In this document: positions 19,801 to 64,000 of the stretch, piece by piece | Layout of the letters: each line of letters begins with the position of its first letter | How positions within the stretch are numbered: position 1 is the stretch's first letter | Source of the DNA: Sphyrna mokarran | Taxonomy: Eukaryota | NCBI GenBank assembly: GCA_024679065.1 | Contig: JAGIQG010000018.1 | Location: forward strand, 12,338,001-12,402,000 | DNA length: 64,000 bases | Reading direction: 5' to 3' | Made by a program: the position numbers and the translations under genes | The notes under the pieces: model-generated | The model's database searches: none | What the model saw: the letters and a program-made list of their open reading frames with translations, nothing else | What the model was told of the DNA's origin: nothing

Positions 19801-22800
19801 AGGAAGGAAATCTATCCTTATCTGGTCAATGTGATTTACTCTTAAATGCCCTCTGAAATGGCCTATAGCAAGCCACTCAGTTCAAGGGCAACAGAGTGGC
19901 AATAAATGCTGGCCCAGCTAGCAATGCCCACGTGCCATGAATTTCATTTTTTTTCCCCCAAAACTGAAAAAGCCACCAATTCTTTTCATGATCCTACAAG
20001 CACCCATTTTCTAATAGATTATTAATGAATTAAGTGGTCACCAGCAGCTCCAATTTTCACTCAAATCTTTAATCTACAAGGAACAGCACCCCTCATGTCA
20101 GTAATCACAGTAAAACCAGTATCATTATACCAATGTCTTGAAAGTACACCAAGCGTTAACAGATAAAACAGCTAATACTTCCACAAGAAACGTTTCTGAT
20201 ATTTTAAGAGAGTCATTGCATGGTTACAACTGAATGGTTAAAGCCTCCATTAAAACACCAGAGACAGGCACTTTGTATAAATACATTAATGCTGATCACA
20301 GAGACAAATTCCAAAGTCTAAATCTATCCTACAATTGAATGGAGTGGTCAACAGATGTAAACAAACATCAAGATGCATCTCATAGAACACAGTAACTTGC
20401 TATTGGCACATAGGCAATTAAATTATAATGTGCTGCAGGAATACTCAATTCCAAGTTAGCAGAGTCATAGCAACTGGCAAGAGACAACCAGAGAGAATAA
20501 AGTCGATGGGTAAACGATCAGAGAGTGGAACATTTCACTCCATTCAGCAAGACTCTAACAGCGTTGAGAGAAAAGCAATTTTGGATTTGGGAATATTAGC
20601 GGCCAATGGAAAACAAATAAGATAGAATGAGAACTCATGAGAGGCACTGTCATTAATTGACATCACGAACCACTGGAAGGAAAAAGACAAAAATTGGCAG
20701 GAGTCATGCTTCAGATCACATTTCAATACCAACAATTCATCAATGCATCAGTACAAATACTCAAGCTGCAAAGTCCTTGAACATTTTGCTACCTCGTACA
20801 TTTCTGTCCACCTTTCTCAATCTAGTTAATCACGTCAATCACAATTCCACCTGGCAGAACAGAAATGGTCCAAATCAAAGCCATAAATGAAAGCTGGCAC
20901 AATGACAATGGTACATCATCCTTCTTTGACTTCTCTGCAACCTTTGACAAAGTCAAACCAAATAGCTTCAGTCTTACATATCCAGTTGTCAGAACATCTC
21001 CATCTTATCTTCCTGTCCTGACAGCTACCTCTGGGATCCCTCAACCATCTCTCTTGGTCTCTTCTCCCTTTTACAGCAATGCAACCCCTTCCATATATAT
21101 ACTGATAATGTATATATTGCATTATTTCTCCAGCATCTCACTGTTTGATGTGGTCTTTGATGATCTCCAATTTTATTCGGGTAAACAATGACGAGGCCAA
21201 AGCCAGTGTCTTCAGCCCCACCACTAACTACATGACTTTGCCACCAAATCGGGCTGAAAGAGACTGCTCAGAATCTCCTTCACTGTCCTATTTGACAATC
21301 TAACCAAGCTTTTTTTCACCGTTCTTTGACTTAGTAACTTTTTTTTCTGATTACACCTCTTCTGTGCACTAGTTTCCAATCCTCAATTATTGCTGCTGAT
21401 GGTTGCAGCAGAAAAGTACAGGCAGTTTTGTAGCAAATGCTTTTGTTTCAAGTTGTAAGATTTTCATTGGTAACTTGAGAACAGAATAAGAGCAAGACAG
21501 TGTGACTACATACAAGGGCCATTATGCAATGATATAGGGGAAGTTGCAAATCTAGCATCTGAAACATCATCACACCTAAATATCTGGATTATTATCCAAA
21601 CAGAGGTGTTTTCTCCTCATTTTCAAACATTTACTATATGGTAACTAAAAGCATTTTACCAAGAAAGTAAATTTACACGAGATGAACAATGATTCTCGGA
21701 TGCAGAAATACAAGGCCAAGGAATTTGCCCAAAAGTACCCATGACGTGATAATTTTGCTACTTAAAATTTACACATGCCTCGGCAAGTCTATTAGCCTCA
21801 CACAAGAAAGTTGCTGATTTATATTTCATTGTAACTTATTGGAAAAATTTAGCAAGCTACCAGATCTTCCAGGCACCCACTTCCTTCCAGCAGAAAAGGT
21901 GATACAAAGCAGGACTAAATCAAACCCTTGGGCGAGAATTTTATGATCTTTCACGCCAATGAGATTTTCCCATCCCACTGCAGCAATTTGGCTTGCTGCC
22001 AAATTCTCTGCAGCAGAAGCTTGGCATGAATCGGCAGTAAGATCACACCTGCTGTCTGTCTAAGTTGCTAATAAATTGGCTTTAGGAAAAGTTCTTATAT
22101 TGGGGTGGAATCTGGAATAGCCAATAGCATCTCCATAGTGAACTGGCTTGCCTGGCCAAAACCAATTAGAAAGAGTCAGGAACCAGTGTAATTAGCATAC
22201 ATTGTTCTCTAAAACTGGATTAGCCAGTGAGCTCTGTGGGCCCTGTGTATTGCATACGTGAATAAGTTACTCCTATTCCACACTGTTTGTGAGTTAGCAC
22301 TGATAATGGACTTTCCCAAACCTTCAGATCTGCAGAATTTAAAAAGCCAGGAAGTTGTCAAATAAAAGTAGTTGCAAGTACGGCACAACAATTTAGCAAC
22401 CAAGAGTGGTTGTAACAGTATCAAAGATCCATCAGTCTATGGAAGGGTGTAGTATGGTCAATGGTGAGGACAGAATGGTTCCTATAGTTGAACACCCTCT
22501 CAACATTCCCTGTCAGGTACTTAAACATAGCTATCAAATTGCAAAGAAAAGCAAAAGATTTTACAGTAGAAATTTCCAAATGCTAAATAAATGCATTATC
22601 TGGTATGCAATATCAAACTAAGTGGACTAGCAAGTTTCAGGTTTAATCCTTCATTGCTTCTGAACTAACTTATTTCAGTTAGGGTCTACCTTAGTCTCAG
22701 ATGCACTTGCCCTATCGCGGGAGGAATCCTGGGGATTCCAATGCTGGGGACATTGTCGGTAATTCCCCAGCAAATCCTTTTGGAAAGGATGGTTGTCATC

Positions 22801-22904: not shown

Positions 22905-24560
22905 AGTAAGAAGCCTCGCAACACCAGATTAAAGTCCAACTGGTTTATTTGGTAGTACAAGTTACTGGTTTGCCAAGTGCTTTTCCTTCATCAGGAATCA
23001 TTGTTCATCTTATGTAAATTTACTTTCTTGGTAAAATGCTTTTAGTTACCATATAGTAAATGTTTGAAAATGAAGAGAAAACACAAACAGGGCATATAAA
23101 GACACAAAGTCAATTTACAAAATAATGGTTGGAATACGAGTCGTCACAGGAAATCAAGTCTTAAAGGTACAGACAATGTGAGTGCAGAGGGAGTTAAGCA
23201 CAGAGAGGTGAGTATTGTCTCCAGCTAGGACAGGTAGTGAGATTTTGCCCAGACAAGTCATGGCGGGGAGTTGGTTGGTTTTACACACAGTATGACATGA
23301 ACCCAAGATCCCTGTTGAGGCCATCCTCTTGTGTGCACAATTCAGTTATCAGTTTCTGCTCAGTGACTCTGCATTGTCGTGCGTCATGAAGGAAGCCTAG
23401 GAGAACATTTACCCGAAGATCAGAAACCAAATGCCTGTGACTGCTGAAGTGTCCCTGAATAGGAACAGAACACTCTTGTGATTGTTGAGCGGTGTTCATT
23501 CATCTGTTGTTGTAGTATCTGCATAATCTCCCCAATGTACTATGCATTGGGACATCCTTTCCTGCAGCGTATCAGGTAGACAACGTTAGCCCAGTTGCAA
23601 ACATACGTACAGTGTACTTGGTGGTTGGTGTTCTGACATGAAATGATGGCATCCGTGTCGATGATCCGACATCTTGCAGAGTTGCTGTGGTAAGGTTGTG
23701 TTGTGGTCACTATTCTTCTGAAGGCTGGGTAGTTTGCTAAGGACAATGGTCTGTTTGAGGGTGTGCGGTTGTTTAAAGGCAAGAAGTGGGAATATGGGGA
23801 TGGCCTTAGTGAAACGTTCGTCTTCAATAACATGTTGAAGGCTCTGCAGAATATATAGTAGCTTCTCTGCTCCAGGGAAGTACTGGACGACTTAGTGTTT
23901 GTCTTCTGAGGAGGTTGGTGCAGTTTTTCACTGTGGCGCATCAGGACTGTTGATTGATGAGTCTAGCACCATATCTTTTTCTTATGATGGCATCTTTCAG
24001 CATCTGAAGATGTCTGTTGCAATTCTCCTCATCTGAACAGATTCTATGTATACTGAGGGCTTGTCTGTACAGATGGCTTCTTAAACATGTTCAAGATGGC
24101 AGCTGGAGAAGTGCAGCACCTTGAGGTTATTTGTGGACTTGCAATACAGTGAAGTGCTGAGGTGACCGTCCTTAATGGAGATGCATGTGTCCAAAAGTGC
24201 ATCTGATTCTGGAGAGTAGTTCATGGTGAGTCTGAAGGTGGGAACTTGATATCAGCGGAGTTGGTTTAGTGATTGTTCCCATGAGTCCAAAGGAAGAAAA
24301 CGTCATCAATGTATCTACTTTATTGCATCAGCTGAAGGTCCTGTGCAGCGAAGAGGTCTTATTCAAATCTGTGCATGAAGATGTTGGCATATTGAGGTGT
24401 GAATTTGTTCACAGTGTCTGGATGAAGAACTGGTTGTTCAAGGTGAAGGTAGTGTGGTCCGGGATGAAGCGGATGACTTGTAAAATTGCATCTGGAGATT
24501 GGCACAAGTTATTCAGGTGTCTATGCGGCCTTGCAACTCTGTACAAGAACTTACGTTCAT
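22905..24560 (-). mobile_element. Penelope-like retroelement remnant (RT + GIY-YIG)
   Basis: YVCNWANVVYLIRCRKGCP, EQKLITELCTQEDGLNRDLGFMS and ILQVIRFIPDHTTFTLNNQFFIQ motifs; terminal repeat shared with 25899-26515. Confidence 0.88.
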
Positions 24561-25898
24561 GCAGCATATTGAATGTAACAAAGTCCCACGACACTTCACG
24601 ACAGTGTTATAAAGCAAAGATGGACATTGAGCCACAGACATATTAGGACAGATGGCCAAAGGTCAAAGAGGTTGGTTTTAAGGAGCATCAGAAAGGAGGA
24701 AGAGGGGTAGAGACTTTCAGGAAGGAAATCCCATATCTTAGAGCCTAGGCATCTGAAGGCACAGCAGCCAATCTTGGAGCAATTAAAAGTCAGGGATGCT
24801 CAAGATACCAGAATGAGAAAGACATATTTTTCAGCAAGGTGTGATGCTCAGATTAGAGATAGAGGGTGGCAAGATCACCAAGGAATTCAAAAATAAGAAT
24901 GAGAATTTTAAATTTGAGGATCAGAAAAGATTCTCACGAATTCTTCTATGAATTAGTTTTACAATTTTGTTTAAAGACTATAACTCGGTTCAAATTCAGA
25001 CTGAGGGCTTGGAGCACGGAATGAGGAGGACACTGCAGAAGCAATTAGAATTTGACTTTAAAGGATTTTAAAGTCCTTGCCCTCCATATAATAAATTACA
25101 ATGCAAGGCCAAAAAAAAGCAATTTTTATCATTATTGTGATCCAATCTATACACAAAGATTTAACCTATTAGGATGAAACAAGTTGGATTTGATTAGTTG
25201 AAGATAGCATTTCTATTTTGATTCCAGGTTGTCTTCTGAGGAGAGAGAATAGAACGGGCCCACATTCTCTGGAGTTCAGAACCATGAGAGAGCTTGCTAG
25301 GTTAAAATGTCAAAGCGATCTGTGGCTGGAGAATTTTGAAATAGGAGTCATATTATAATACTATCAGCCATTTTGGATTGAGATAAGGAGAAATTTCTTC
25401 AGCTAGGGGATTTATATCTTTGGAATTTGCTATGCCAGAGAGCTGTGGATGTTCAGTCATGTGTTCAACAAATATTTGGACACTAAGAATTTGGATAAAT
25501 AAGGATTGAATAGGAATATGGAAATTGGGCAGAGGTTATCTTGCTGCGCGGTAAAGTATTGCTTCTGTCAAGTTGACCAACAGCTGGAACAGCTAACTAG
25601 GAACAGTGGTTAAGGCTAGAAACACTAGATTCATTTCAGCATCTAAACATTTAACTGGCAGGGGATTGAGCTGCTATTCTGGAAGGACACGATGAAATGG
25701 AACGAAGCTCTTCAAAACCTATCTGGTAACAATGTGACGAGTGCTCTGTTCAGACAAGCAAGTTACGTGCACCAGTAAATTAGTTCAAAATATAAAATGA
25801 ATTCTTGCTTGCTGTGCCAATACAATTTTCTTATGCACATTTACACTTTAGTCCATTTTAACATTTTGCACCTATAAAAACTGCTCATTTCAAGCACA

Positions 25899-26515
25899 GT
25901 AAGAGTCTCCCAACACCAGATTAAAGTCCAACAGGTTTATTTGTTAGCAAATGCCACTGGCTTTCAGGACTCTGCTCCTTCGTCAGGTGAATGGGGAGTT
26001 CTGATCGCAAACGGGGTACATAAAGACACACACAGTTTACAGAATACTGATTAGAATGCGAGTCTTTACAGCTTATCAAGTCTTAAAGGTGCAGACAACG
26101 CGAGTGGATATAGCATTAAGCATAGGTTAAAGAGATGCGTATTGTCGCCAGACAGGACAATAAGTGAGATGTTGCAAGCACAGGCAAGTCACGGGGGTTA
26201 CAAATAGTGTGTTACACTAATGTAACATCTCACTTTTGTCCAGTCTGGAGATAATACTCATCTCTTTAACCTACGCTTAATGCTATCTCCACTCACATTG
26301 TCTGCAGCTTTAAGTCGATTATCTGTAAAGTCTCTTGTTCTAATCAGTATTTTGTAAACTGTGTGCCTTTATATTTGATCAGAACTCCGCACTCATCTGA
26401 CGAGGAGCAGAGCCCCGAAAACTAGTGACGTTTGCTACCAAATAAACCTCTTGTGAACCTCGTGTTATGAGACTCCTTACTCTGTTTACCCCAGTCCAAT
26501 GCCAGCATCTCCATA
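25899..26515. mobile_element. Palindromic non-autonomous Penelope terminal-repeat element with hammerhead-like cores
   Basis: Arms ~25899-26176 and ~26221-26481 are imperfect reverse complements; CTGACGA...GAAA in each arm. Confidence 0.8.
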
Positions 26516-29800: not shown

Positions 29801-30944
29801 GAAGCTGCCTAATCTGCTGACTACTTCTAGCATTTCTGCATTTATATTCAATCTTTTCAGAAAATTTCTATATGTAGGAACTCTGACTGATTTTTCCCCT
29901 TCCAAGCCCAAAAGTCACAACTGAATCCGGCAACCTTGCTGCCTCTGAACAAGTCAAGGATTAAACCCACGACCCTCCCATCTGCACTGCCATTTCATCA
30001 TGTAAGCCGTTCTTGTCTGGATTTTAGAACTATCAGAAATTCTTGCATGCATATTGCAGGACACAGCACAGCTCCAGTCTGGCTGTAAATTATGACTCAG
30101 AGGAGTGGCAATCACTTCCTTTAGTTCAAAAACATAACCCTTTTGCGAATCACGTAAACCGGGTGCTTGATGCAAATCAAACAGTATGTGATTCCAAGCA
30201 CCTTTCATTTATAACATGATTCTGAACAAAGCCAACAAATTATTGTGCCATGATTTGCTTTACCATCAAATTTTTCTTGCATAAAAAGTTTGCACAATTG
30301 ATTAGAAAATATGGACTCGTGAACTGTACAAATTTTACACACAAAACATTCATCAGTATTGGCAATCTATACTATTTTCCATCCTTGGACAAATACACAT
30401 CAAGGTTGAGGGAACAGGCTGGGTATATCCAAAGCTCAATGCCAATTTAGCTTTCTTTGAGGGAGAATGGGCTGCTCATTTTTAAATATGAACTGCTTTG
30501 AATATTGTCTTCTCTTGTCTGGGAACTTGGGTTCAATGCAACATTCTTTTTGGAAGCGGGGAGAGGGAGGCAGTGATGAGGAATAAACATTAACCTCACA
30601 TAACCACGTCAGCAGAGCCAGGAATACAATAGGGCCATGTGTGTCAACGTATACGGAGTCCCCTTAAGTTACAGAACAGCCTCTCTCACACTAGACACGT
30701 GTTAAAGCACAGATAACATCACAAATCAATCCACAGTTCTTGATGTTGGGAACATATTGGTAGTAGACAATGAGGTTGAAGGGGATAGAATGGCACGAGG
30801 GTGAAGGGGCGGAATATGGCGATGAGAGTGCAATGGAGTTAGGAGGGATGATGGGGATATGCCTGGTAAAGGGCAAAGGCTGTCAGGAAGGGTTGCCAGA
30901 AGAACATGAAGGGGGTTAACAGTTTTTTTTTGCAGGGGGGGAAA

Positions 30945-32010
30945 GGAACACAATCGGGCCGTGAAAGGGTTTGGGGGGGGGGTGGGGTGGGGGGGGTGTG
31001 AAGGGGCTTTGGGGGGGGGGGAACCACAGCCGGGTCGTGAAGGGGCTTTGGGGGGGGGGGGGAACCACAGCCGGGTCGTGAAGGGGCTTGGGGGGGGGGG
31101 GGGAGACACAGCCGGCCCGTGAAGGGGCTTTGGGGGGGGGGGGGGGAGACACACAGCCGGCCCGTGAAGGGGCTTTGGGGGGGCGGGAACCACAGCCGGG
31201 CGTGAAGGGGCTTTGGGGGGGGGGGGACCACAGCCGTGAAGGGGCTTTGGGGGGGGGGAGACACAGCCGGCCCGTGAAGGGGCTTTGGGGGGGGGAGACA
31301 CAGCCGGCCCGTGAAGGGGGGGGGGGGAGACACAGCCGGCCCGTGAAGGGGCTTGGGGGGGGGAGACACAGCCGGCCCGTGAAGGGGCTTTGGGGGGGGG
31401 GGGGAGACACAGCCGGCCCGTGAAGGGGCTTTGGGGGGGGGGAGACACAGCCGGCCCGTGAACTTTGAAGGGGCTGGGGGGGGGAGACACAGCCGGCCCG
31501 TGAAGGGGCTTGGGGGGGGGGAGACACAGCCGGCCCGTGAAGGGGCTTTGGGGGGGGGAGACACAGCCGGCCCGTGAAGGGGCTTTGGGGGGGGGGGGAG
31601 ACACAGCCGGCCCGTGAAGGGGCTTGGGGGGGGGGGGGGAGACACAGCCGGCCCGTGAAGGGGCTTTGGGGGGGGAGACACAGCCGGCCCGTGAAGGGGC
31701 TTGGGGGGGGGGGGGAGACACAGCCGGCCCGTGAAGGGGGGGGGGGGGGAGACACAGCCGGCCCGTGAGGAGCGGGGGGGGGAGACACAGCCGGCCCGTG
31801 AAGGGGCTTGGGGGGGGGGGGGGGGGAGAGGGGAGACACAGCCGGTCCCGTGAAGGGGCTTGGGCGGGGGGGGGAGACACAGCCGGCCCGGAAGGGGCTG
31901 GGGGGGGGGGGGGGGGGAGAGGGGAGACACAGCCGCCCGTGAAGGGGCTTGGGGGGGGGGGGAGACACAGCCGGCCCGTGAAGGGGCTTGGGGGGGGGGG
32001 AGACACAGTG
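30945..32010. repeat. G-rich minisatellite, unit about (G)nAGACACAGCCGGCCCGTGAAGGGGCTT(T), roughly 25-30 copies
   Basis: Directly visible tandem array with variable G-run length; degenerate units continue to ~32180. Confidence 0.95.
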
Positions 32011-32450: not shown

Positions 32451-32520
32451 CAGCGTCTGCCGTCAGACGCAGCGCGCGGAGGATTGTGGTGACAGCAGAT
32501 CAGGCCCCGCCCCTTTTTAC
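32415..32520 (-). promoter_or_regulatory. CpG-island housekeeping-type promoter
   Basis: ETS core CCGGAA 32421-32426, CRE-like TGACGCA 32428-32434 and ACGTCA 32439-32444, GC box GGCCCCGCCC 32503-32512, dense CpG, no obvious TATA box. Confidence 0.65.
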
Positions 32521-32524
32521 CCCA

Positions 32525-33850
32525 CCTAGCAACCAACTGCCCCCCTCCTCCTCCCAACCAACTGACCCTTTCCTTCTCCCAACCAACTGCCCCCTTCCTT
32601 CTCCCTCTCCCAACCAACTGCCCCCTTCCTTCTCCCAACCAACTGCCCCCTTTCCTTCTCCCAACCAACTGACCCTTTCCTTATCCCTCTCCAACCAACT
32701 GCCCCTTCCTCCCCCAACCAACTGCCCCCTCCTTCTCCCAACCAACTGACCCTTTCCTTCTCCCTCTCCCAACTAACTGCCCCCCCTCCTCCTCCCAACC
32801 AAACGCCCCCTCCTCCTCCCAACCAATTGCCCCCTCTCCTCCTCCCAACCAACTGCCCCCTCCTCCCCCAACCAACTGAACCCTTCCTTCTCCTTCTCCC
32901 AACCAACTGACCCTTCCTTCTCCTCTCCCAACCAACTGCCCCCCTCTCCCCCAACCAACTGACCTTTCCTTCTCCTTCTCCCAACAACTGACCCTTTCCT
33001 TCTCCCTCTCCCAACAACTGCCCCCTTCCTTCTCCCAACCAACTGCCCCTTCCTTCTCCCAACCAACTGACCCTTTCCTTCTCCCAACCAACTGACCCTT
33101 TCCTTCTCCCTCTCCCAACCAACTGCCCCCCTCCTCTGAACAACTGCCCCTTCCTTCTCCCAACCAACTGCCCCACTCCTCTGAATAACTGTCCCCTCCT
33201 CCTCCCAACCAACTGACCCTTTCCTTCTCCTTCTCCCAACCAACTGCCCCCCTCCTTCTCTCAACCAACTGACCCTTTCCTTCTCCCTCTCCCAACCAAC
33301 TGCCCCCCTCCTCTGAACAACTGTCTCCTCCTTCTCCCAACCAACTGTCCCATCCCCTGACCATGTGCCCCCTACCCTGGTTAACTGCCCCATCCCCTGA
33401 CCATGTGCCCCCCACAGTCAACTGCCCCCTCCTCTCCCAACCAACTGCCCATCCCCTGACCATGTGCCCCCTATCCCAGCCAGTTCCCCCTCCTTCTGCC
33501 AACCAACTGCCCCTGACCATCCCCTGACCATTTGGCCCCTATCACGGTCAACTGCCCCCCCACTCCCTGACTAACTGCCCCATCCTCTGCCAACTGCCCC
33601 CTCCTCCTCCTCCCCCCAACCAACTGCCCCATCCCCTGACCATGTGCCTCCTACTCTGGTCAGCTGCCCCTTCCCCTGACTAGTTGCCCCCACTCCCTGA
33701 CCAACTGCACCCTCCTCCTCCTCCTCCTAACTAACTGACCATCCCCTGACCATGTGCCCCTATCCCAGTCAACTGCCCTTCCCCTGACTAATTGCCCCCA
33801 CTCCCTGACCAACTGTCCCTTCCTCCTCCCAATCAACTGCCACATCCCCT
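32525..33850. repeat. Pyrimidine-rich satellite with core CCAACCAACTG(C/A)CCC; degenerate continuation 34350-35070
   Basis: Dozens of visible CAACTG-core units separated by C/T tracts. Confidence 0.92.
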
Positions 33851-33859
33851 GGCCAACAA

Positions 33860-34349: not shown

Positions 34350-35249
34350 GTGCCCCATCCTCTGAATAACTGCTCATGTCCTGACCAATTGCCCCAACCA
34401 CATGGCCAACAGCCTCCACATCATGGCCAACTGCTCTCTACCCCCCAAGTGACTTCCTCTTCCCTATACAATTTCCCTCCCCTCTGTCAACTGCCCCATC
34501 CCCTTACCAACAGCCCCACCTATAGTCAACTGCTCTCTACCTCATTAACTTCTCCTTCCCCACCAACCCCTACCCAATGCCTCTTCCGTCCCCCAACTGT
34601 CCCATCCCCTGACAACTGCCCCATCCCCATGGCCAACTGCTCTCTCTCTCCTCACCAACTCCCACTTTCCTGCCAACTCCCACCTAAGGCCCATCTGCCA
34701 ACCAACTGCTCTTCCCCCACCAATTGCCCCTCCCCTCCCAATTGGCACTCCTCCACAAACTATTCATCCCCCAACTAATTTCTCCCATCTCTGCATTCAC
34801 CCCAGCTTTTCCCTTCTCCTTTCCCAACCTCCAGCCCCCTACCCTTCCCCTTCACAACCCTGCTCCACTGGCCCTCTCCCACTCACTCGTCTTCACCTGC
34901 CCACTACCTCCCGCTCCACCCTCTGCCTAATGCTTCCCCCTTCCTAACCCCAGTCCCTACTCTCTTCCGCTGCTCTTCCTGTCCTGTCCCTGCCCTCCTT
35001 TTCTCCACCCCTCATCCTCTTCCTGTTGCTTTACCTCCCCCATCCATGCTCCAGCCCTTTCCCCCCTTCTTTCCAAATGCAAATATGAAATTGTTCACTT
35101 CAGCAGAACAAAAAATAACTGATGATCTGAATGGTGAGCGACTGCAGAGCTCAGAGGTGCAGAGGAATCTGGGTGTCCTGGTGCATGAATCATTAAAGGC
35201 TAGTTTATAGGTACAGCAAGTAATTAGGAAAGCTATTAGAAAGTTGCTA

Positions 35250-53708: not shown

Positions 53709-54508
53709 TGGTTCTTTATCCACGCAAGAAATGAATGCCCACAAAGTTCTGTGGCTTAGTCTTGATCGAGTCTGTACGTACTGTTGACCAACATGGATCT
53801 TTGAAAAGTGACTGAAAGGAGGAGCTCAGATTCCACAAATGTATCATCTCAGAGGCATTGCTGACTATTTGGGCTAACTCAATATAGAAAGAGGAGATAA
53901 TCCTCATATTCACAGCTCAGAATGCATTTCCCCAGTAATGCTTTTGGGTTTTTTCCCCCATGACTTTAACATCAATGCTTCAGCAACAATAAGAATAATT
54001 GATATGGGCTGACCATCCCCACCCAGAAGGTCACTGGATGAATGAATTACCCAGTTTGATCTCCAGTTTGTGCTCAGTTTGCTGATCTCAATCAGGATAC
54101 AACAAAGGTATTTCAAATGGCCTCAGTCACCCTTGATTGGGTTAAAGAAAAATTGGCCAGAGTCCCCAATTCAGGATTGATGTCCTGTGAAATTTGCATG
54201 CAAGTGTATGTGGGTGTCAAATAAGAACAAGATCAGATGAAGTGCTGTTGCCTGACATGATGGACTAGTCTATAGACCTGCTGATGGTCAGTTAGGAAAG
54301 TTATGGAGCATTGCTGCAACTTGAGGCTGCACACATTCAGATCATATAGGTGGAAGGCAATTGTTTGAATGAGTACTTGAAAATATATAAAGAGATCATT
54401 TCACTGCTTTGCGAGTAGGAATACAAAGAAAACAAAATGATCAACTGAAACAGATGTATAATTTGAAACAGTCACAAAATTGCAAAGAAGCTATCATCAG
54501 AGATATAA

Positions 54509-54772
54509 TTAGCACTGCTGCCTCACAACACCAGGGACCCGGTTTGATTCTGGACTTGGGTCACTATCTGTGTAGAGTCTGCACATTCTCCCATGTGTCT
54601 GCATGGGTTTCCTTTGGCTGTTCTGATTTCCTCTCACTGTGCAAAAGATGTGCTAGCTAGGTGCTAAATTCTCCCTCAGTGTACCTGAACGGGCACCAGA
54701 GTGTGGTGATTCAGGGGTTTTCATATAACTTCATTGCAGTGTTAATGTAAGCCTATTTGTGACACAAATAAA
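54509..54772 (+). mobile_element. tRNA-derived SINE, alternative-tail subfamily
   Basis: TTAGCACTGCTGCCTCAC head; tail AACTTCATTGCAGTGTTAATGTAAGCC; tail fragment also at ~51550-51610. Confidence 0.82.
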
Positions 54773-54920
54773 TCAATTTTTTTAAAAAAAATTTGATACT
54801 AGCCAGAAAAAATACTGAAGCAAATAACTAGTAAAAAAAAATCAAAAAGAAAATAATTTTTGAATGTGGGTTTTCAATCAAAAAAGTTAGAGTTACCAGC
54901 TGAGATGGAAAAGCATCCTT

Positions 54921-55112
54921 CTACTCTTCAGTGGCAGATTTGGAAGACACCTGGATGACCTCGACCGTGCTGAAGCTTTTGCTTGCAGAAACCCGGTTCC
55001 GGGTGCGAAGTTTGTTCAGTGCACATTCTGCCATGCCAGCTCTCTCTTCAGCATCATCCAGCTCGTGCACGGTTTTCCTGTATTTTGCCAGGCTCTGGTT
55101 AGCCTGTTCCTC
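54921..55112 (-). CDS. MYH16: MYH16-like last coding exon with stop ([63 protein letters not shown])
   Basis: CCACAG acceptor, TAG stop. The tail [28 protein letters not shown]...VExIQVS resembles mammalian MYH16 as recalled, rather than MYH1/2/7 tails. Confidence 0.85.
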
Positions 55113-55989
55113 CTGTGGAGATGAAAGCAAAGTAATACTGTGAAAGGGGTTGTCATCACCAGTTGTTTTCTAGCAGGAACAACTGTAACAGCCCCAGCAG
55201 CTGAAGTTGGAAAATACGCTCTCCAAATTGGTTGACATTGAGAAGAAAAACTAACTACTTAATGACTAAACGAATAACCTTTCGCAGCTGATTTACTTGT
55301 TAACTGAGAAAGTAATATGATGGAAATGGGGCTTGGTATTTGGCCAGTAGGTTGAGTCAGGATCTGTATAAAATCTTTTCTGTAAACGAACTTAGACACT
55401 GGAAATAGAAATAATATTCTAGCCTTGAAATTTCCTGGTGGGACAGGTGAGATTGGGGTGGGTGGCTGTTCTGCTGGTCTCTCATTGTAACTCGAGCAAG
55501 AAACTAGTCGATCCCCGAGGACACTTTATTCTGTGCCATTTTCTTATACTTTCTTTGCGGATCTATAAAGGAAACAAATGATGGTGAGAGTTTCTGATGT
55601 CCAAGCTCATTGCCTGCTGATGCTTTACCGTTTGCTATTTTCTTGGCAGTTTTTGTAATTGCCTTCTACTCTGAAGAGGTAGGTCCCAAATTGAGTTCAG
55701 CCCTGAAGGAGGGACAGGGATTCAACACCACATTCCTGGCCTTATTTTGAACCACATACAAGCCACCTAAGGTCATATCCCTGCTCCCAATGAAGGTAAT
55801 AGGTGCAGAGGGCAAAATTAAAAATATGGCACCAAGACAAGAAAGGGCATGCTGGAAGGGTAATCTAAAACATGGATGAAGAGAGAGATTTTATAGGTAA
55901 AAAGGGATTTCAAAAGGAATTTTCAGAGTGATTTAATTAGAATAATGGCTTTCAATACTTGGTGCCAGGATAATGTTGAGTTAACTTAC

Positions 55990-56190
55990 AGACTCCTCAA
56001 TCTGTCTCTTGTAGCTCTTCAGTTTGTTCTGCAGTTTTTCCACCAGCTCCTGCATGCGCTGATTGGTCTTATGATCTTCTTCAGTCTGGAAGATCAGCTC
56101 CTTCAGCCGCCGTTCATTCTTACGCAGATTCTTCACTGTTTCAACGTGACGTTTCTGCTCTGAGTCCAGCTCAGACTCAAGCTCCTTAAT
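55990..56190 (-). CDS. MYH16: MYH16-like rod exon, 201 nt ([67 protein letters not shown])
   Basis: TTTTAG acceptor, TCT|GTAAGT donor, open frame by hand translation; region of the myosin assembly-competence domain. Confidence 0.92.
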
Positions 56191-56322
56191 CTAAAACATG
56201 GGAAATAAATGTTAAATAAATGTGAAATTTCTTGGTTGAGAGGAGTAATGTTGACTTCCATCAGAATTCAGGATCAGCGGACCAGAAAAAAGATAAAGAT
56301 AGGATGGAACATTTGCATTTAT

Positions 56323-56616
56323 CATAGAATCCCTACAATGAAGGAGACTATTTGGGCCATTGAGTCTGCACTGACCACAATCGTACCTAAGCCCTATTCC
56401 CCTTAACCCCACATATTTACCCTGCTAATTCCTTGACATTAGGGTTAATTTATCATGACTAATCAACCTAACCAGCACTTCTTTGGACTGTGGGAAGAAA
56501 TCAGAGCACCTGGAGGAGAACGTCAAACTCCACACTGACTGTGACCTGAGGCCGGAATTGAACCTGGGTCCCTGGCGCTGAGGTAGCAGTGCTAACCACT
56601 ATGCCGCCATGCCACC
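56323..56616 (-). mobile_element. HE1-type SINE nested in an older SINE tail
   Basis: Reverse complement of head, core and tail; flanks TTGCATTTA...TTTCATGACCTCCAGATGTCCCAA resemble the interrupted tail seen at 63085-63130. Confidence 0.82.
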
Positions 56617-57177
56617 TTAAGTACAGTGTCTTTCATGACCTCCAGATGTCCCAATCTCTTTCTGATCTCTGTAAGAAACGTTACAACCAGACACGTGACA
56701 GCCATTTCTAAGGGCCAGTCAGATCAACCATTCCAACTGGCAGGTCAGCATTAACTCACTAAATATTCTGAGATGTTTTTAATCTAACACAAATCTTCCT
56801 GTACTAACATATATGTTCTAATTTAGCAATAATTTAAGTTTATCCCAGAAGACTATTAAATTCAGTTAAGGGCTAAAAATGATGGACTAGACCATGTCTC
56901 ATCCCCATTTGTGACAGATCCTATTTTGGCTGGGTTGGGTGGGAGGACACTTTTTCCTGAGATGGGTGTAGCAACTGGGAGATTTCCTGACTCAAGTTCC
57001 CCAAATCGCGAGTGAAAATCTAGGCCTCTATATTTCAATTAATAAATCAATGGACTGTGGTTTATTTCTCCCTTTGATATCTCAGGTGTTATGATGCAAT
57101 AAAATAACACTCTGAAGCTGAACTATTTTCTGTGGTAATTCAAGTCACATTCATTCCTATTTGCTTGCTCTTCTCAC

Positions 57178-57348
57178 CTTCGTCTCCAGTTTCTGGATGA
57201 TGCGTCGGCCACCTTTGAGGGCTTGTTGTTCAGCTTCTTCTAGCTTAACCTGCAGATCTTTGATTTGAATCTCAAAGTTTTTCTTTATCTTCTCCAGGTG
57301 CATGCAATGTTCCTGCTCTTGGTGCAGCTCCTCAGTCATACGGGCAGC
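57178..57348 (-). CDS. MYH16: MYH16-like rod exon, 171 nt ([24 protein letters not shown]...IQKLETK)
   Basis: AAACAG acceptor, AAG|GTGAGA donor; ORF 57157..57360. Confidence 0.92.
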
Positions 57349-57773
57349 CTGTTTAAACAAAAGAGAAAATGAAATTGATGCAATGACTTGTAAACAGCCT
57401 ACATTTTATACATATCCTGTTAGAACCAAAATTATCAATAGCTGAGAGATCTGCAGTTTAAACAGTTCAGCAATTATTCTTTAAAATCTATGTAATGAAG
57501 CAACAAGAAATTTAGATCAATATCATGATCTTTTAAAAAATTCATGATATATAATTATAAAATAACAATAATAACGGCATAGAAAATGATTTCATATTTT
57601 CATGACAATGAAAAGATGGGAGATGTCTGATTCTTGCTTGGACATAAATAAAATGTTAATTTAGTTTTACTTAGCCTAAGTAAAATTATGTCATACAAAT
57701 AATAGGTTGGTGAATGTTATCTCAGTGAACAAGAACACCTGAGTTGTGTGGTGGCCCAAGATTGTAAACTTAC

Positions 57774-57899
57774 ATCACTCATGGCCTTCTTTGCCTTCTC
57801 ATCAGCAGAACGGAACTCATGGATCAATTCTTCATGTTCGTTTGTGAGCGACTGAAGATCTCCTTCCAGCTTACGTTTGTAAGTCAGCAAAGTACTATT
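57774..57899 (-). CDS. MYH16: MYH16-like rod exon, 126 nt (NSTLLTYKRKLEGDLQ...DEKAKKAMSD)
   Basis: CCCTTCAG acceptor, GAT|GTAAGT donor; ORF 57717..58004. Confidence 0.92.
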
Positions 57900-58386
57900 C
57901 TGAAGGGGATGAAAATAGAAAGTTTGAGAGCTTAATTCATTCTGTCCAGTCTGATCAGTTAACCACTTCAAATAGACTTTCCATTCTGGTAAGATCTCTT
58001 CCATCTGCTTTACTCATCCATGTTGCTCCTGGCCCTGTGTCGATACATTATAACATTTTATAATGCAGCTTCAGGATTCATGAGCCTTAACTAGAAACTC
58101 TGATTTGCAATCTTACTACGTCCAAACAATGCTTCTATTTTCTAATTGGAACTTGAACCTTGTGGTCTAGATTTTTAAGAATAAGACTGAGACTGTTCAA
58201 AAACCTATCTCAGTTTGGATCCAGATAGACAGAATAGAAAATACATTTTGGATATAAAACCAAGCTGTCTGTAAAAATATTGTGATAATACAATGTTGAT
58301 TTGTGACTCCTTTACTTCTGCAAAATGTTTATATTTTTTAATGATCTTTCTCCAGTAGCTTGTGATTATTTACTCCTAGTAGTTAC

Positions 58387-58590
58387 CTGCACATTGAGCT
58401 CATTGTACCGTTCAGTAATTTCTACCAACTCCTGTTCTGTGAGCTTGCGAGATCGTTCACTGGATTCTAGAGTATTGCGATGTTCTTCCAGTTCTGTCTG
58501 CAGAAGGCTAATGCGCCGTTCTGACAGGTTGAACTGTTCACGCAACTCCTCATGTCTACGAGAATCCTCGTCCATTTGTGCTTGTGTATC
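58387..58590 (-). CDS. MYH16: MYH16-like rod exon, 204 nt (DTQAQMDEDSRRHEELREQ...YNELNVQ)
   Basis: CCTTCAG acceptor, CAG|GTAACT donor; ORF 58366..58653. Confidence 0.92.
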
Positions 58591-59179
58591 CTGAAGGAAC
58601 AAAAGGATCGTTCTGTCAGCAATGAGATTATTGAACATTGAATGTGTCAACATTTGCTGGCTGACTCTCAGTCAGGCAATGGTTCAATGTAAGAATTCTT
58701 TTCTGATCCCTGCATAGCCTTGCCTCACGCTATCTCTGAAACCTCTTGAATTCCAATAACTCATTGAGGTTCCTGCACTCCTCCAATTCTGGGCTCTTGC
58801 ACAATCTCAACTACCTTCACTCTATCGTTATCTGCCTGGGCCCTAAGCTTCCTTTATCTCACTGTTATCTTTAAGACCATTCTCATCTGCCACAATACCT
58901 CCTTTGCATCTCAGGGTAATTTTTTCTAATAACACATCTGTGAAGGATTTTGGAACTGTTTACTCCTTAAAGGATGATGTGTAAGTACATTCGCTTGTTG
59001 TAAGTATATTTGTAATCCTACCATAATTAAGAAACATTTATATGACTAGGCTTGTATTTATCTTATTTCAACTATTTTAGTTTTGCTTCTTACTTCCTTA
59101 ACATGAAACTACCCAACCTTTCTTGCAAGATGAGATTGCAATAATTTACAATGAAGCAAAAGGTTCAACTCATCTGTAC

Positions 59180-59372
59180 CTTGAGTTGTTGCTGGAGTTT
59201 CTTTAGGGTTTTGACCAACTCTGCATTGTTTTTGTTTGCATGTTCTAGTTGGATCTCCATCTCATTGACATCGGCTTCCATTTTCTTCTTCAGCCTCAGT
59301 GCCTCAGCACGGCCTTTGGTCTCAACCTCTAAGCTGGCCTGCAATGATTCAATGGCACGCTGGTGGTTCTTT
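59180..59372 (-). CDS. MYH16: MYH16-like rod exon, 193 nt ([46 protein letters not shown]...QQLK)
   Basis: TTTACAG acceptor, AAG|GTACAG donor; ORF 59165..59413. Confidence 0.92.
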
Positions 59373-59661
59373 CTGTAAATTAATAGGAAAAGGCACATTA
59401 GAAACCTTACCAATAGTGACCAACAGTGGTGAATGTCATGGAGATGTCTTTACCCAATAACATGCAACTTTCTTTGTTGAAAGAGAAAGTTGATTATTTA
59501 ACATTACAAAAATAAAGTATTAAGTAGATACTATTCGCAATGTTCAATTCTGATATTTCAATGCAGGGTATAATTTTTAAATCATTACAATAATATTGCT
59601 TAAATCAAAATCAGGAATACCTTTAAAAGTTGTGGAATGACAATACTATCACACTACATAC

Positions 59662-59765
59662 CTTGTGGTTTCAAATTCTTCTTCTTTCTCATGGATTCTC
59701 CGCTCAATGTCTGCCTTCACCTGTGCCAATTCCAGTTGAACGCGGACTACCTTAGCCTCCTCTGC
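59662..59765 (-). CDS. MYH16: MYH16-like rod exon, 104 nt (AEEAKVVRVQLELAQVKADIERRIHEKEEEFETTR)
   Basis: TATTTAG acceptor, AG|GTATGT donor, open frame by hand translation. Confidence 0.9.
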
Positions 59766-60737
59766 CTAAATATAAGATCAACCAAATCTTGTCAGCATGG
59801 AAAAGAAGGTTCAGCTGAGGCATAAAATAGCTATGTCTTGTTTTTATGTAGGATTTACAATGTAAGGAAAATTCTCCAGGGGTCTCACAATAGATATTGA
59901 GCCAAAAGGACAGAATCTGAGATATTGTCAACAGTTTGGCCAAAAACGTGAATTTTGAGGACATTTTGTCAGAGAAACAATTGAAGACTATTTCACCATT
60001 AATGGAGTGAAAGGGCTCGGAATGCACACAAGGCTAGAATCTCAGCAATGGAGTGTCACATAGGGATGGAAGTAATTATGGAATTTTATTTTTCTTGGTA
60101 AGACATGAGGCCAGTATCATCTAAATGTGATATAAAAGTGGACTGGGTCGTGGCATTGTGCCGTTAGCAAGATGCTGAGCTTTTGTTGTGCAAAACTCTA
60201 CATTTACAGTTTTCTATCACTGCATTTAGCCATTGCATCTCAGTATCAACAGTCCTTTGATGTGACAATCCAGCTAAGGGTGACAGCCTAGTTTTCCCAT
60301 TTATTCCCCTCACCCATAAACTGGCCATATAAGTGCATTTACATCACAAGCTTCGCATCAATGTTACTTGTGAAAGCACCTGAAGTAACTCCCAATTTAA
60401 TTGGATTGAGACTGTCTCTGTTACGGGTTCTTACTCCATGTTGTTCTGATGTCAAGTCTAGGTTTGATCTGCACTTTCACTATTGCTGTAATATCATGAA
60501 AGAGTAAAACAACTTGGTAAGTTGTATAAGCGTACCTATTGAATTTTACATGCTCATGATTCAGAATGAACTGCATAACGTATGTACTTTGTCTAGTGCA
60601 TGCAGCAGACATACAAATGTTTGGGACAGTTCCCAAGCTTATACTGTGGTGCTAATGCTTCATGCAATACTAGTCACATTTTTATTCTGACTAAAACATT
60701 TGTTTTGAATGACATTCACTGAATCAGATTTCAGTAC

Positions 60738-60874
60738 CTCCAGTGAACTTTCAGCCTCTTCCAGAGCTATCTGCAGTTCATCCCTTTGAACTTCCAGCTT
60801 TTTCTTCAATTTCTGCAGCTCGTGCACATTCTTTCCACCCTCAGTAAGCTGGTCCACCAATTCTTTAATCTCAT
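60738..60874 (-). CDS. MYH16: MYH16-like rod exon, 137 nt ([28 protein letters not shown]...EEAESSLE)
   Basis: CTTCAG acceptor, GAG|GTACTG donor; phase 1 start matches the upstream exon. Confidence 0.9.
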
Positions 60875-61007
60875 CTGAAGATTCATAGAACATTGCATCG
60901 TGAAATGGGTGATTGTTTACATCAAAACATTTGAAGCTAGACTTCTGAAAAGTAATATATCCATTGTTCACAAGGCAAACAATGTTACTTTCCATATTTG
61001 CTGAGGC

Positions 61008-61075
61008 GCTGAGGCACTGAGGCCGAAGAAGAAAATGGAAGCTGATGTCAATGAGATGGAGATCCAACTGGAACA
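61008..61075 (+). repeat. Inverted 68-nt copy of myosin exon sequence 59241-59308
   Basis: Manual alignment: 65/68 identical to the reverse complement of 59241-59308. Confidence 0.95.
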
Positions 61076-62104
61076 ATGTTATTTGGGAAAGAGGCCAAAT
61101 AACATACTTTAAGTGGACTGGCCTTTGAGCACAATGGGCTGATTGGCCCCCTTCTGTGTAAAATGTTATTGGCGATCATGTAAGATGGGTGACAGCAAAT
61201 TGGCAGCCTGTTTTCCATCTCTCTCCATTTTTATTTCCAGTGAAATCAATGGAGATGACAATTCACCAAGACACAGTGTACAATTGCACAACATTCAAGT
61301 TGCCCCATGACAATGTGTGATTCGATTGCGAGGTGGCACACCAGCATTGTAGCATTATGAACCTTTGGCACAGTTATGGGATCACTTCATACATTTCTTC
61401 ATAAAAGTGAAACATATGATAGATTTGCCATTAATACTGTGAAGTAAATCCTTCATTACGTTTGAGACTCCTTGTTGTAATACTTTCTAATATACCAAGA
61501 CCTTTGGTACAGTATTGTTTATGGTTCTGTCAATAATAGAGTAACTGCCTAAAATAGCGTCTGTAACTCACTGCATTACAGTGTGACAGACAGAATGAAA
61601 ATATAGCAAAATCAAAATACTTTAATAACAAAATTGAAAATTGAAATAGCTATGTTTCAGTTTGATGTAATAACTGATTTCTGCATTAAATCTCACTGTT
61701 TGAGGTAGTCAAGCGGTCTCAGAATTGAATTGCAAGTGGAAAATCTGGTGGTCAAAATGGATTGAGAAATAAATGGCTTGAGCAGCTTTTTAGCAATGAA
61801 CTGAAGATTAACAGATTCTACTTAAGATACAAGGGAGAAGCTTTTTATGAATTCCACATTTGCAGCGTGCCAATCCTGCTAAATAAAGTGAACTAGCTTT
61901 GTGAAATTGATTGTACCTGTACGTCTGCATGTAATCCTCTACAGTCAGGTATGTGTGTGCTTGCATGTGTGTTTTGTGGTAGTTCTGCTTCATCTGTGTT
62001 GAGTAATAAGACACCCAAGATACCTTTGTAATATGAAAGAGGATTAAAATACCAACTGGTTGTTCTGTTACAAAAATGTTTTATGATGAATGTCAAATTC
62101 CCAC

Positions 62105-62321
62105 CTTGTAGATTCTTATTGTCCTTCTTCACAACCTCAAGCTGCTCAATAATCTCTTCATAGACAGTTTTAAGTTTGAAGACTTCTGTCACATGGCACC
62201 TGCACTCCTTCTGTGAGTTGTCAAGTTCAACCTGCAATTCTTCATATTTTTGCTGCCATTCTGACATCATTTTATCGAAGGAGCGTTGCTTTTTATCCAA
62301 AATAGCTGCAGCAGCATTTGC
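62105..62321 (-). CDS. MYH16: MYH16-like rod exon, 217 nt ([30 protein letters not shown]...KKDNKNLQ)
   Basis: TTCTAG acceptor, G|GTGGGA donor; overlaps ORF 61893..62300; LDKKQRxFDK motif. Confidence 0.9.
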
Positions 62322-62795
62322 CTAGAAACAGTTAGAAGCGCAGGCATTAACTGTATTCCATACAAAAATAATCTTGCAGAGATCATGCCTGTATTTTGTT
62401 TGGTTTAAATCTTCTTGGGATTTCTGTGAGCGCAGTGGAGGATATATAAAGAGGATTGTAACTTGTTGGGTAAGTATTTTGAATGAGTGAACCAGGCATT
62501 GAATGCAGCACTGCTGTTAGGATTGCCAGCTCTGATTGAGAACATTCCTGAAGGTTTCATCACATGACCTCACAAACTTATTTAATTTTTCTTCAGTATT
62601 TTAAAAATGAAAAATATTGGCAATTTTTAAAACTGCCACTACACTTTATCTTGCTGGTTACTTGCAACAGTTCTAATGATTAATTATTTTATTCCTGTAT
62701 GGTATCGGAAGTTTGGGAATGCTCGCTGATCTGTGCTTATAATATTAGAAAAAAATCACTCTTATTTGCATTCGCAGTTTCTTTCTAAGTTGTAC

Positions 62796-62928
62796 CTTTT
62801 CCAGTTCAATGGTCAAATCTTCCACCTCTCCAGTAAGTCTCTGTTTAGATTTTTCTAGACTAGCTGCTCGGGCCTGTGCAGCCTCAGCTGCTTCTTCAGC
62901 CTCTTGTAGTCTGGCAGCCAGCTTCCTC
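62796..62928 (-). CDS. MYH16: MYH16-like rod exon, 133 nt ([44 protein letters not shown])
   Basis: TTTACAG acceptor, AAG|GTACAA donor, open frame, myosin heptad sequence; missed by the ORF track. Confidence 0.9.
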
Positions 62929-63084
62929 CTGTAAATGAAAAAGCATCATAACAGAAGATGTGTCATTCAAGGAGAAGTCAAGCAGCACGAAGGTTGAGAT
63001 GTTTGCATTACATCGCTATCTGGGAGGTTCATGTTATTAAGACACCAATGTCTCCAAGCCTCAAAAAAGAGTACTTTAATAGGT

Positions 63085-63310
63085 TTGCATTTATATAGCA
63101 TCTTGCTTAACCTTAGAATGTCCCAAAAAGTTCTGCAGCCAGTAACACATTCATAGTCACTATTTTACTCAAGGAAATGTGGCAGCCAATTTGCACACAG
63201 CAATATCCCACAGAAAGCAAGGTGATAATGACTAGATAATCTGTTTAGGTGTTGGTTAACAGATGACTATTAACCGGAGCATTAGGGTGAACTCCATTGC
63301 TCTTTATAAC
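63085..63310 (-). mobile_element. DeuSINE/SacSINE1-like ancient SINE 3' part
   Basis: TTGCATTTATATAGC...GTCCCAAA...GCAGCCAATTTGCACACAGCAA; related fragments at ~1265-1420, 27500-27735, 29110-29260, 48200-48300. Confidence 0.55.
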
Positions 63311-63920
63311 TGAGGTGCAAAGAAATTTCTTCCACCAAGGGATTGTGAATCATTGGAATTCTCTGAGTGCTATGATATTCAGTCCGTGAGTATATTCAAT
63401 AATGAGATTGCGAGATTTTTGGGCACTTTGGAAATCAATGGATTTGAGGATAAGGCTGGAAAGTGGATGTTCGTGTAGATTAGTTAATGTAGAAGTTCAG
63501 CCATGGATAGTTCATATGGCCAAATGGTTCACTCCTCCTCCTATTGTGTATACTTTTATTTAACTGACAACATGTTCAATTAACTGCCTGATCACTTACG
63601 AAGAAAAATAAAGAACAGAAAATGCTCCTCAGCAGGTCAGGCAATATCTGTGGAGAGAAGCAGAATTAATGAACAGAATTCTCCAACCCTTTCTGCCAGT
63701 GAGCTCTTCTGTTCCCACTAAAATTGACCCCCTCACTCCAAGTTCTTTCAAACAGGGGCATGGGAAGGAATAGAAATCACGATTGACTTTGGTGGGACTT
63801 TGATGGAAAGTCCCACTGGCAGTTGCTGGCGAGTCTCCTCCAGCACAGGAAAACCTGCTCAGGGGAGTTGGAGAATTCCATCCAGTATTTTAGATCGATG
63901 ACTGTTGTCTGCTCACTTAC

Positions 63921-64000
63921 TTTGTCTCTTCCAATTCTTCGGTTTTCTGAATGGCATCAGTTTCATATTTGGTCCTCCATGTTGTCACCTCACTGTTTAG
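63921..64000 (-). CDS. MYH16: Myosin heavy chain (MYH16-like) rod exon, truncated by window edge (LNSEVTTWRTKYETDAIQKTEELEETK)
   Basis: Hand translation gives the hallmark sarcomeric myosin rod motif WRTKYETDAIQxTEELEE; donor AA|GTAAGT at 63920; phase 2 matches the next exon. Confidence 0.9.

What the first reader, a model, noticed from the sequence alone, without database searches (positions are those of the whole stretch)
59241..61081. Myosin intron carries an inverted, near-perfect copy of one of the gene's own downstream coding exons (possible built-in antisense/editing-guide element)
Seen: 61008-61075 (+) reads GCTGAGGCACTGAGGCCGAAGAAGAAAATGGAAGCTGATGTCAATGAGATGGAGATCCAACTGGAACA. This is 65/68 identical to the sense sequence of the minus-strand exon at 59241-59308 ([22 protein letters not shown]). 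In the pre-mRNA it is therefore antisense, lies ~134 nt upstream of the 60874 acceptor, and can pair with the exon ~1.7 kb downstream, enclosing the 137-nt and 104-nt exons. The three differences give one G-U wobble (59292/61024) and two A-C mismatches; one puts the exonic A at 59246, in a UAG context, opposite C. Established: long exon-intron duplexes act as ADAR editing-complementary sequences, A-C mismatches in UAG context are preferred ADAR sites, and flanking inverted repeats promote exon skipping or back-splicing. Inference: this could guide A-to-I editing (CUA>CUI is synonymous, but neighbouring Lys/Glu/Met/Asn codons could be recoded), produce a 241-nt circRNA, or cause frameshifting skipping coupled to NMD. 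It could equally be a neutral repair scar.
Basis: partly seen in the sequence, partly recalled or inferred. Interest (0 to 1): 0.78.

Follow-up and report, generated by a model that had tools for sequence, protein, structure and literature searches.

The report
Backwards exon copy in shark myosin
A shark myosin gene of the jaw-muscle type carries in one intron a 68-base backwards copy of one of its own exons that four related species lack; it is likely an ordinary DNA-copying scar, predicted to pair with the exon in the RNA, and nothing yet shows that it edits or re-splices the message.

Summary
In detail: 61008-61075 is a 65/68 inverted copy of exon bases 59241-59308 in an intact shark MYH16 gene. 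It is lineage-restricted: 4 of 4 related-species DNA runs have a contig crossing the site without it, with 17 other letters in its place. The 84-nt insert has template-switch marks: an 8-nt slip unit and an 11-nt fold-back from the right flank. The highlighted A-C mismatch arose later, by a synonymous change in the exon; relatives and the copy keep the old base. Such local inverted copies are common here: 11 in 1.864 Mb, all 0.36-1.70 kb apart, matching the human 'Inverted Dup' class. The duplex is predicted to form, but the residues that editing would make are almost never seen in 120 relatives, and skipping frameshifts. No RNA was examined. One lead: the fresh insert held a strong acceptor-like site whose AG one of its two mutations removed. 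The scan has reported like cases on other DNA. Verdict: ordinary scar, low interest.

The parts
59241..59308 (-). Donor stretch inside MYH16 coding exon 59372-59180 ([22 protein letters not shown]); 59246 is a derived synonymous G>A (CTG>CTA)
   Evidence: 4 of 4 relatives read the other base at 59246
61008..61075 (+). Inverted copy of the donor; antisense to the exon in the pre-mRNA; two changes of its own (61024, 61043)
   Evidence: absent in 4 of 4 relatives
61000..61007 (+). Extra 8-nt unit repeating the start of the copy (likely polymerase slippage in the donor's short tandem unit); 60999-61007 matches donor 59301-59309 inverted
61076..61083 (+). Filler at the right junction; 61076-61086 is the exact reverse complement of 61095-61105 (fold-back from the right flank)
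   Evidence: (I19); 0.0001 of 20000 random places have such an 11-mer
61095..61105 (+). Right-flank template of the fold-back filler
   Evidence: its state in relatives is not visible in the cut tables
60978..60999 (+). Left flank. 60988-60999 is old sequence (present in relatives); 60978-60987 is a 10-nt direct repeat of 61072-61081, but relatives have other letters at 60983-60986
   Evidence: direct 10-mers within 110 nt occur at 0.02 of random places, so this is weak
60875..62104 (-). Host intron, 1230 nt, with a rather weak real acceptor (6.0 bits, 8th weakest of 40)
60738..60874 (-). 137-nt exon inside the predicted loop
59662..59765 (-). 104-nt exon inside the predicted loop
61016..61050 (-). 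Predicted cryptic acceptor made by the antisense copy (pyrimidine tract, AG at 61018-61017, branch-like motifs 32 and 36 nt upstream); use would add 142 nt and shift the frame. A stronger AG at 61024-61023 was removed by the change at 61024
   Evidence: home-made matrix from the gene's 40 acceptors; prediction only

Best explanation
The element is a lineage-restricted inverted copy of 68 bases of a MYH16 exon, likely made by one germline template-switch or break-repair event and likely persisting as a near-neutral scar. Shown: 17 letters of old intron were replaced by an 84-nt insert built of three templated pieces (slip unit, exon copy, fold-back from the right flank); the 1.7 kb between the arms kept its orientation; afterwards the copy changed at two places and the exon at one synonymous place. 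Inferred: a stalled or broken nascent end folded back on the right flank, jumped about 1.7 kb to the opposite-sense template at the exon, slipped once in a short tandem unit and rejoined the left flank (direction and polymerase cannot be told). In the pre-mRNA the arms would pair if the host intron is still unspliced when the exon is made, so a low level of editing or mis-splicing is possible, but as a side effect, not a selected function.
For: Empty site in 4 of 4 related-species runs, each by a contig across the site (tables 5, 5c, 8). Junction marks fit snap-back SD-MMEJ (PMC2943611, passages) and multi-template MMB-TI germline events (PMC8421209, passages). 11 unique inverted pairs (>=40 nt, >=88%) in 1.864 Mb, all with gaps of 0.36-1.70 kb and none beyond 2 kb; 3 of 3 background pairs tested have no other copy found in the genome; extrapolation about 15,000 per genome (7,100-27,400), so about 150-220 with exon donors if coding DNA is 1-1.5% (assumed). 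Same size and distance as human 'Inverted Dup' variants (PMC4617611, passages). 2 changes in 68 nt against 1.7-2.3 expected for neutral DNA as old as the split. No compensatory change among 3 differences.
Against: No RNA was examined, so neutrality is inferred, not shown. The decay test has almost no power (2 events; 95% range 0.4-10.6%) and the age is not known independently. The four relatives share many differences from this genome and may be one clade, so they may count as one comparison; no farther outgroup or second individual was laid. The duplex is very stable on paper, and non-Alu inverted pairs of 220-297 bp do cause skipping in Tbxt (PMC10901737, passages). One of the copy's two changes removes the AG of a strong acceptor-like site, which would fit selection acting on the insert.
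Confidence: 0.8

Rival explanations
1. Same origin, but the duplex has a measurable side effect in jaw muscle: a few percent of transcripts are edited in the exon, skip the 137+104-nt exons (frameshift, likely decay), form a 241-nt circle, or use the cryptic acceptor at 61016. Tolerated, not selected for.
For: Predicted near-perfect duplex of about 68 bp; hyper-editing is abundant in a cartilaginous fish brain (PMC5625713 Table 1); inverted pairs of any sequence can cause skipping; cryptic site scores 7.2 against 6.0 for the real acceptor.
Against: Hyper-editing is rare in coding regions in all species tested. One arm lies inside an exon, unlike the intron-intron pairs of the Tbxt case. Decoy AGs of 7.2 bits or more occur 1.76 times per kb of this gene's introns, and 11 of 40 introns have a stronger decoy within 200 nt of the real acceptor. 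The gene is intact.
Confidence: 0.14
2. A selected editing guide or splicing switch: the insert was kept because it recodes or tunes MYH16 in this lineage.
For: Long exon-intron duplex with an A-C mismatch in UAG; the insert has lasted long enough for three substitutions.
Against: Absent in 4 of 4 relatives; the UAG site is synonymous and made by a later exon change; in 15 of the 16 codons where one A>G changes the residue, no product is seen in any of the 120 best relatives, and in the 16th it is seen once (these hits were chosen for likeness, which inflates conservation); no compensation; the class is common.
Confidence: 0.03
3. An RNA-templated patch or retrotransposon by-product: a piece of MYH16 transcript was reverse-transcribed into a break, with the 10-nt direct repeat as target-site duplication.
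For: 10-nt direct repeat 60978-60987 / 61072-61081; class 2 TSIPs are short RNA-derived patches with microdeletion (PMC5110952, passages). The copy lies within one exon, so no splice junction can tell RNA from DNA.
Against: No poly(A); 17 letters were lost rather than duplicated; 12 old bases lie between the left repeat and the insert, and relatives differ inside the left repeat; TSIP donors are described as distant, while all 11 inverted pairs here are under 2 kb apart and mostly non-exonic; MYH16 is mainly a jaw-muscle gene (PMC6402096, passages), so germline RNA is unlikely.
Confidence: 0.025
4. Assembly or library artefact.
Against: The copy carries the relatives' base at the place matching 59246, which this genome's exon lacks; X1 holds 1.00 of the sampled words; no N in the window.
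Confidence: 0.005

Closest known systems
'Inverted Dup' structural variants, 1000 Genomes phase 3 (Sudmant et al. 2015, PMC4617611; passages read)
   Same: Duplicated stretch under 1 kb, inverted, inserted within 5 kb of its source, not tied to retrotransposition; here 68 nt at 1.7 kb.
   Different: Those are human polymorphisms; this one has three substitutions, is in a shark, and its donor is a coding exon. Whether it is fixed was not tested.
MMBIR-type templated insertions (MMB-TI, complex class; PMC8421209) and snap-back SD-MMEJ (PMC2943611); passages read
   Same: Inverted copy of a nearby template, several template pieces in one insert, replacement of a few old bases, short fold-back repeat at the junction.
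   Different: The MMB-TI search there used templates within 100 bp; the main template here is 1.7 kb away. Junction microhomology is short and ambiguous (1 nt on the left by the plainest parse). The polymerase cannot be named.
Editing-complementary sequences for ADAR recoding (GRIA2 type; listings only; defining features recalled)
   Same: Intronic sequence complementary to a coding exon of the same pre-mRNA, with an A-C mismatch.
   Different: Known ones are conserved, imperfect and site-selective and most lie in the intron next to the edited exon (recalled); this is lineage-restricted, near-perfect, three introns upstream, and its mismatch site is synonymous. No editing shown.
Inverted-pair exon skipping in TBXT (Xia et al. 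2024, PMC10901737; passages read)
   Same: Lineage-specific insertion that makes an inverted pair around exons; effect needs no special sequence.
   Different: There both arms are intronic and 220-297 bp, and skipping was shown; here one arm is exonic, 68 bp, skipping shifts the frame and nothing is shown.
Class 2 templated sequence insertion polymorphisms (PMC5110952; passages read)
   Same: Short patch without poly(A), with microdeletion at the site, donor intact.
   Different: Donor is local, not distant; an RNA intermediate is not indicated.

Membership tests
Local inverted duplication ('Inverted Dup') | Copy under 1 kb, inverted, within 5 kb of the source | tested here: met
   68 nt, 1699 nt apart
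Local inverted duplication ('Inverted Dup') | An allele or relative without the copy exists, source intact, spacer not inverted | tested here: met
   4 of 4 relatives lack it; X3, X4, X12 contigs are collinear over 59150-60982
Local inverted duplication ('Inverted Dup') | Not a transposon or retro-copy | tested here: met
   3 matches in the genome, none a repeat family; no poly(A); no repeat cover in the spacer
MMB-TI / SD-MMEJ scar | Several templated pieces and a short inverted or direct repeat from the flank at the junction | tested here: met
   8-nt slip unit, 11-nt fold-back
MMB-TI / SD-MMEJ scar | Microhomology at the switch points | tested here: inconclusive
   1 nt on the left by the plainest parse, 3-4 nt under other parses; relatives about 5% diverged blur the junction
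MMB-TI / SD-MMEJ scar | Dependence on a given polymerase or pathway | not testable with these tools
   a past germline event
ADAR editing-complementary sequence | Forms a duplex with the exon in the pre-mRNA | tested here: met
   prediction only: mean pair probability 0.97; timing against splicing unknown
ADAR editing-complementary sequence | A-to-I editing seen in the paired exon and dependent on the element | not tested
   no RNA run was laid; one RNA run with share 0.14 is listed
ADAR editing-complementary sequence | Conserved across species, with pairing kept or compensated | tested here: not met
   absent in 4 of 4 relatives; 0 of 3 differences compensated
circRNA / skipping-inducing inverted pair | Both arms in introns flanking the looped exons | tested here: not met
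   one arm lies 64 nt inside exon 59372-59180
circRNA / skipping-inducing inverted pair | Back-splice or skip reads | not tested
   no RNA run was laid
MYH16 (masticatory myosin) host gene | Best matches are myosin-16; frame intact | tested here: met
   exon 100% identical to two shark myosin-16-like proteins; 41 exons give 1921 residues to the first stop, 1843 identical to the 1926-aa P0001

The most novel reading that the evidence does not exclude
A regulatory duplex caught at birth: a repair accident gave one shark lineage a 68-bp exon-intron helix in its jaw myosin pre-mRNA; selection first removed the harmful splice acceptor that the antisense copy brought with it (change at 61024), and the remaining helix now edits or mis-splices a measurable share of MYH16 transcripts. 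With some 150-220 such exon-donor copies expected per genome, local inverted duplication would be a steady source of new editing guides and splice switches.
Probability: 0.1. Interest if true: 0.6.

Novelty: new member of a known kind. Interest (0 to 1): 0.2.

Why it matters
As it stands it is a tidy, dated example of a common mutation class, with an empty site in relatives that lets the event be read almost base by base. It would matter if RNA showed an effect: it would be a natural test of whether a 68-bp exon-intron helix across three introns forms before splicing, and of how new editing guides arise. The tight 0.4-1.7 kb spacing of all 11 inverted pairs is a useful clue to the copying mechanism in this genome.

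Tried and rejected
Paralog as donor: rejected, next best genomic match is 84% over 50 nt. Transposon end or terminal inverted repeat: rejected, one arm is a coding exon and no family is found. Inversion with duplicated breakpoints: rejected, spacer is collinear in relatives and its exons read in order. Target-site duplication: first suspected from the 10-nt direct repeat, dropped after one search showed 60988-60999 to be old flank and 17 letters lost. The 'designed' A-C mismatch: rejected. The open frame 61175-60663 that runs into the 137-nt exon: an in-frame 126-nt extension needs the AG at 61002-61001, which scores 0.9 bits (above only 2 of 40 real acceptors); judged chance. States of 59273 and 59292 in relatives: not among the 40 rows shown, 92 rows not shown, so assigning both changes to the copy rests on Leu/Met only at that codon in 120 proteins and, for 59273, on the CpG context and that absence. 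Paper searches: 'MYH16'+'RNA editing' 0 papers; 'shark'+'MYH16'+'jaw' 10 papers, 8 listed, none about this element by title; a search for low editing in muscle gave 4 listings that I did not read, so that point is not used. Supplements of the papers were not opened; those of PMC4617611 may hold the size and distance data of the class.

Full report
Observation. The inverted repeat is as described: arms 59241-59308 and 61008-61075, 65 of 68 identical, 1699 nt apart. It is the only inverted pair longer than 36 nt among 21 listed in 54000-64000. The three differences, read on the exon sense, are CTG>CCG (59292/61024), GCC>GCT at a CpG (59273/61043) and CTA/CTG (59246/61070); in the pre-mRNA they give one U-G and two A-C appositions.

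Host gene. The donor exon's 64 residues are 100% identical to two shark myosin-16-like proteins, and most of the best 120 of 815 hits are named myosin-16 or the like. The gene spans window 54924 to 123819 (into the neighbouring stretches), 41 exons and 40 introns with GT or GC donors, 1921 residues to the first stop (a few junctions of this automatic fit may be off). MYH16 is mainly a jaw-muscle myosin and is reported in sharks (PMC6402096, passages). Of 41 exon pieces searched against 1.064 Mb, only this one has a clear extra copy; one other 31-nt hit at E 0.009 lies 460 kb away. In the whole genome the element has 3 matches of 3 candidates: itself, the donor (96%) and an 84% paralog.

Relatives. 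Of 24 runs listed I laid 4, from organisms B, C, D and E. They differ from this genome at about 5% of places over 59150-60982 (88, 94 and 98 of 1833 in X4, X12, X3). All 4 have a contig that joins 60982 to 61084 with 32 letters between, in place of 101. By eye, 12 of those match window 60988-60999 (one change in X4), 3 stand for 60983-60987, and 17 are intron letters unlike the exon, which the insert replaced. So the insert is 61000-61083, 84 nt. All 4 also read the other base at 59246, so their exon codon is CTG, as in the intronic copy. The copy thus preserves the older state and the exon changed G>A later. Limits: the four share many differences from this genome and may be one clade; no farther outgroup, second individual or RNA run was laid. 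Polarity (gain here, not loss there) is inferred from the replaced letters and from the copy's closeness to the exon.

Junctions. On the left an extra 8-nt unit repeats the start of the copy, and 60999-61007 matches the donor end, as from slippage in the donor's short tandem unit. On the right, 61076-61086 is the exact reverse complement of 61095-61105; at 20000 random places in the window this happens at a rate of 0.0001. A 10-nt direct repeat (60978-60987, 61072-61081) is weaker (0.02 at random places), and relatives differ inside its left copy. Snap-back synthesis giving inverted repeats at junctions is described in PMC2943611 (passages), and multi-template germline insertions in PMC8421209 (passages). 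Which strand moved and which polymerase acted is not determined.

How common. In 1.864 Mb of this genome (1.064 Mb around the window, 200 kb from each of four other contigs), 11 inverted pairs of at least 40 nt and 88% identity have arms with no other match in the sample; all 11 have gaps of 360-1699 nt, none beyond 2 kb; 13 direct pairs are more spread. With other cut-offs the counts are 15 (14 under 2 kb) and 7 (all under 2 kb). Three of the 10 background pairs were searched genome-wide and none had a further copy of the arm (the search can miss common words). Leaving out this element, 5.4 per Mb extrapolates to about 15,000 (7,100-27,400), and to about 150-220 with exon donors if coding DNA is 1-1.5% (my assumption) and donors are random. 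Sudmant et al. report that most human inversion calls were inverted duplications, nearly all under 1 kb and within 5 kb of the source (PMC4617611, passages). Earlier notes of this scan describe like cases in other genomes and in this one; I used them as leads to two papers.

Decay. The copy has 2 changes in 68 nt (2.9%, range 0.4-10.6%); neutral DNA as old as the split would have 1.7-2.3. This shows no constraint but has little power. None of the 3 differences is compensated.

RNA consequences, predicted only. Duplex energy is -127 kcal/mol at 37 C against about -11 and -8 for the arms folded alone; in a 1971-nt fold at 25 C the mean arm-to-arm pair probability is 0.97. It can form only while the 1230-nt host intron is unspliced. 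Of 26 adenosines in the exonic arm, 20 would recode. In 15 of the 16 codons concerned no single-edit product occurs in the 120 best relatives; in one it occurs once (biased to conserved hits). Skipping 241 or 434 nt shifts the frame (arithmetic). Hyper-editing is plentiful in elephant shark brain but rare in coding regions (PMC5625713, passages). Inverted pairs of 220-297 bp with both arms in introns cause skipping in Tbxt (PMC10901737, passages), so an effect is possible in principle.

The antisense of a purine-rich exon is a pyrimidine tract with AGs. With a matrix built from the gene's 40 acceptors, the site as first copied scores 10.8 bits (above 32 of 40 real acceptors; 12 of 3824 decoy AGs reach it), 148 nt upstream of a real acceptor of 6.0 bits. 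The change at 61024 removed that AG. The next AG (first exonic base 61016) scores 7.2, a level reached by 1.76 decoys per kb, and 11 of 40 introns have a stronger decoy within 200 nt of the real site. That one of two changes hits this AG has a chance of about 6% (2 of 68 places, two draws), noticed after the fact: suggestive of selection against a harmful acceptor, not evidence of a function. The branch-point pattern used is recalled.

Verdict. A real, lineage-restricted local inverted duplication, new member of a known class, most likely near-neutral (0.8); a tolerated side effect on editing or splicing 0.14; a selected guide 0.03. No paper joining MYH16 and RNA editing was found in the held library. 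Interest 0.2.

Noticed in passing
G000:C749:12428769-12428865 and 12430083-12430179 (L006:6769-8179), beyond the window: A second unique inverted pair in the same MYH16 gene, 97 nt, 98% identical, both arms intronic, brackets a 119-nt exon (skipping would shift the frame). This is closer to the Tbxt-type anatomy than the element given.
   Followed up: partly
window 21606-21708 and 22983-23084: Another inverted pair, 103 nt, 93%, 1274 nt apart, arms without other copy found in the genome.
   Followed up: partly
1.864 Mb sample of G000: All 11 unique inverted pairs have gaps of 0.36-1.70 kb, four of them 1.17-1.27 kb; none between 2 kb and the sample size. The narrow range may reflect the copying mechanism; blast extension could hide pairs with very short gaps.
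   Followed up: partly
window 12911-13179 / 13431-13697 and 25892-26487: A 269-nt 98% inverted pair within repeat DNA, and a roughly 600-nt imperfect palindrome (77%).
   Followed up: no
window 30930-32010, 32520-33855, 34386-34735: Degenerate tandem arrays seen as off-diagonal self matches.
   Followed up: no
window 83018 region of the gene (beyond the window, contig C749 about 12421018): One of the 40 fitted MYH16 introns starts with GC rather than GT.
   Followed up: no
window 61178-61250: A repeat-family fragment begins about 100 nt right of the insert; many unrelated contigs of relatives pile on it.
   Followed up: no
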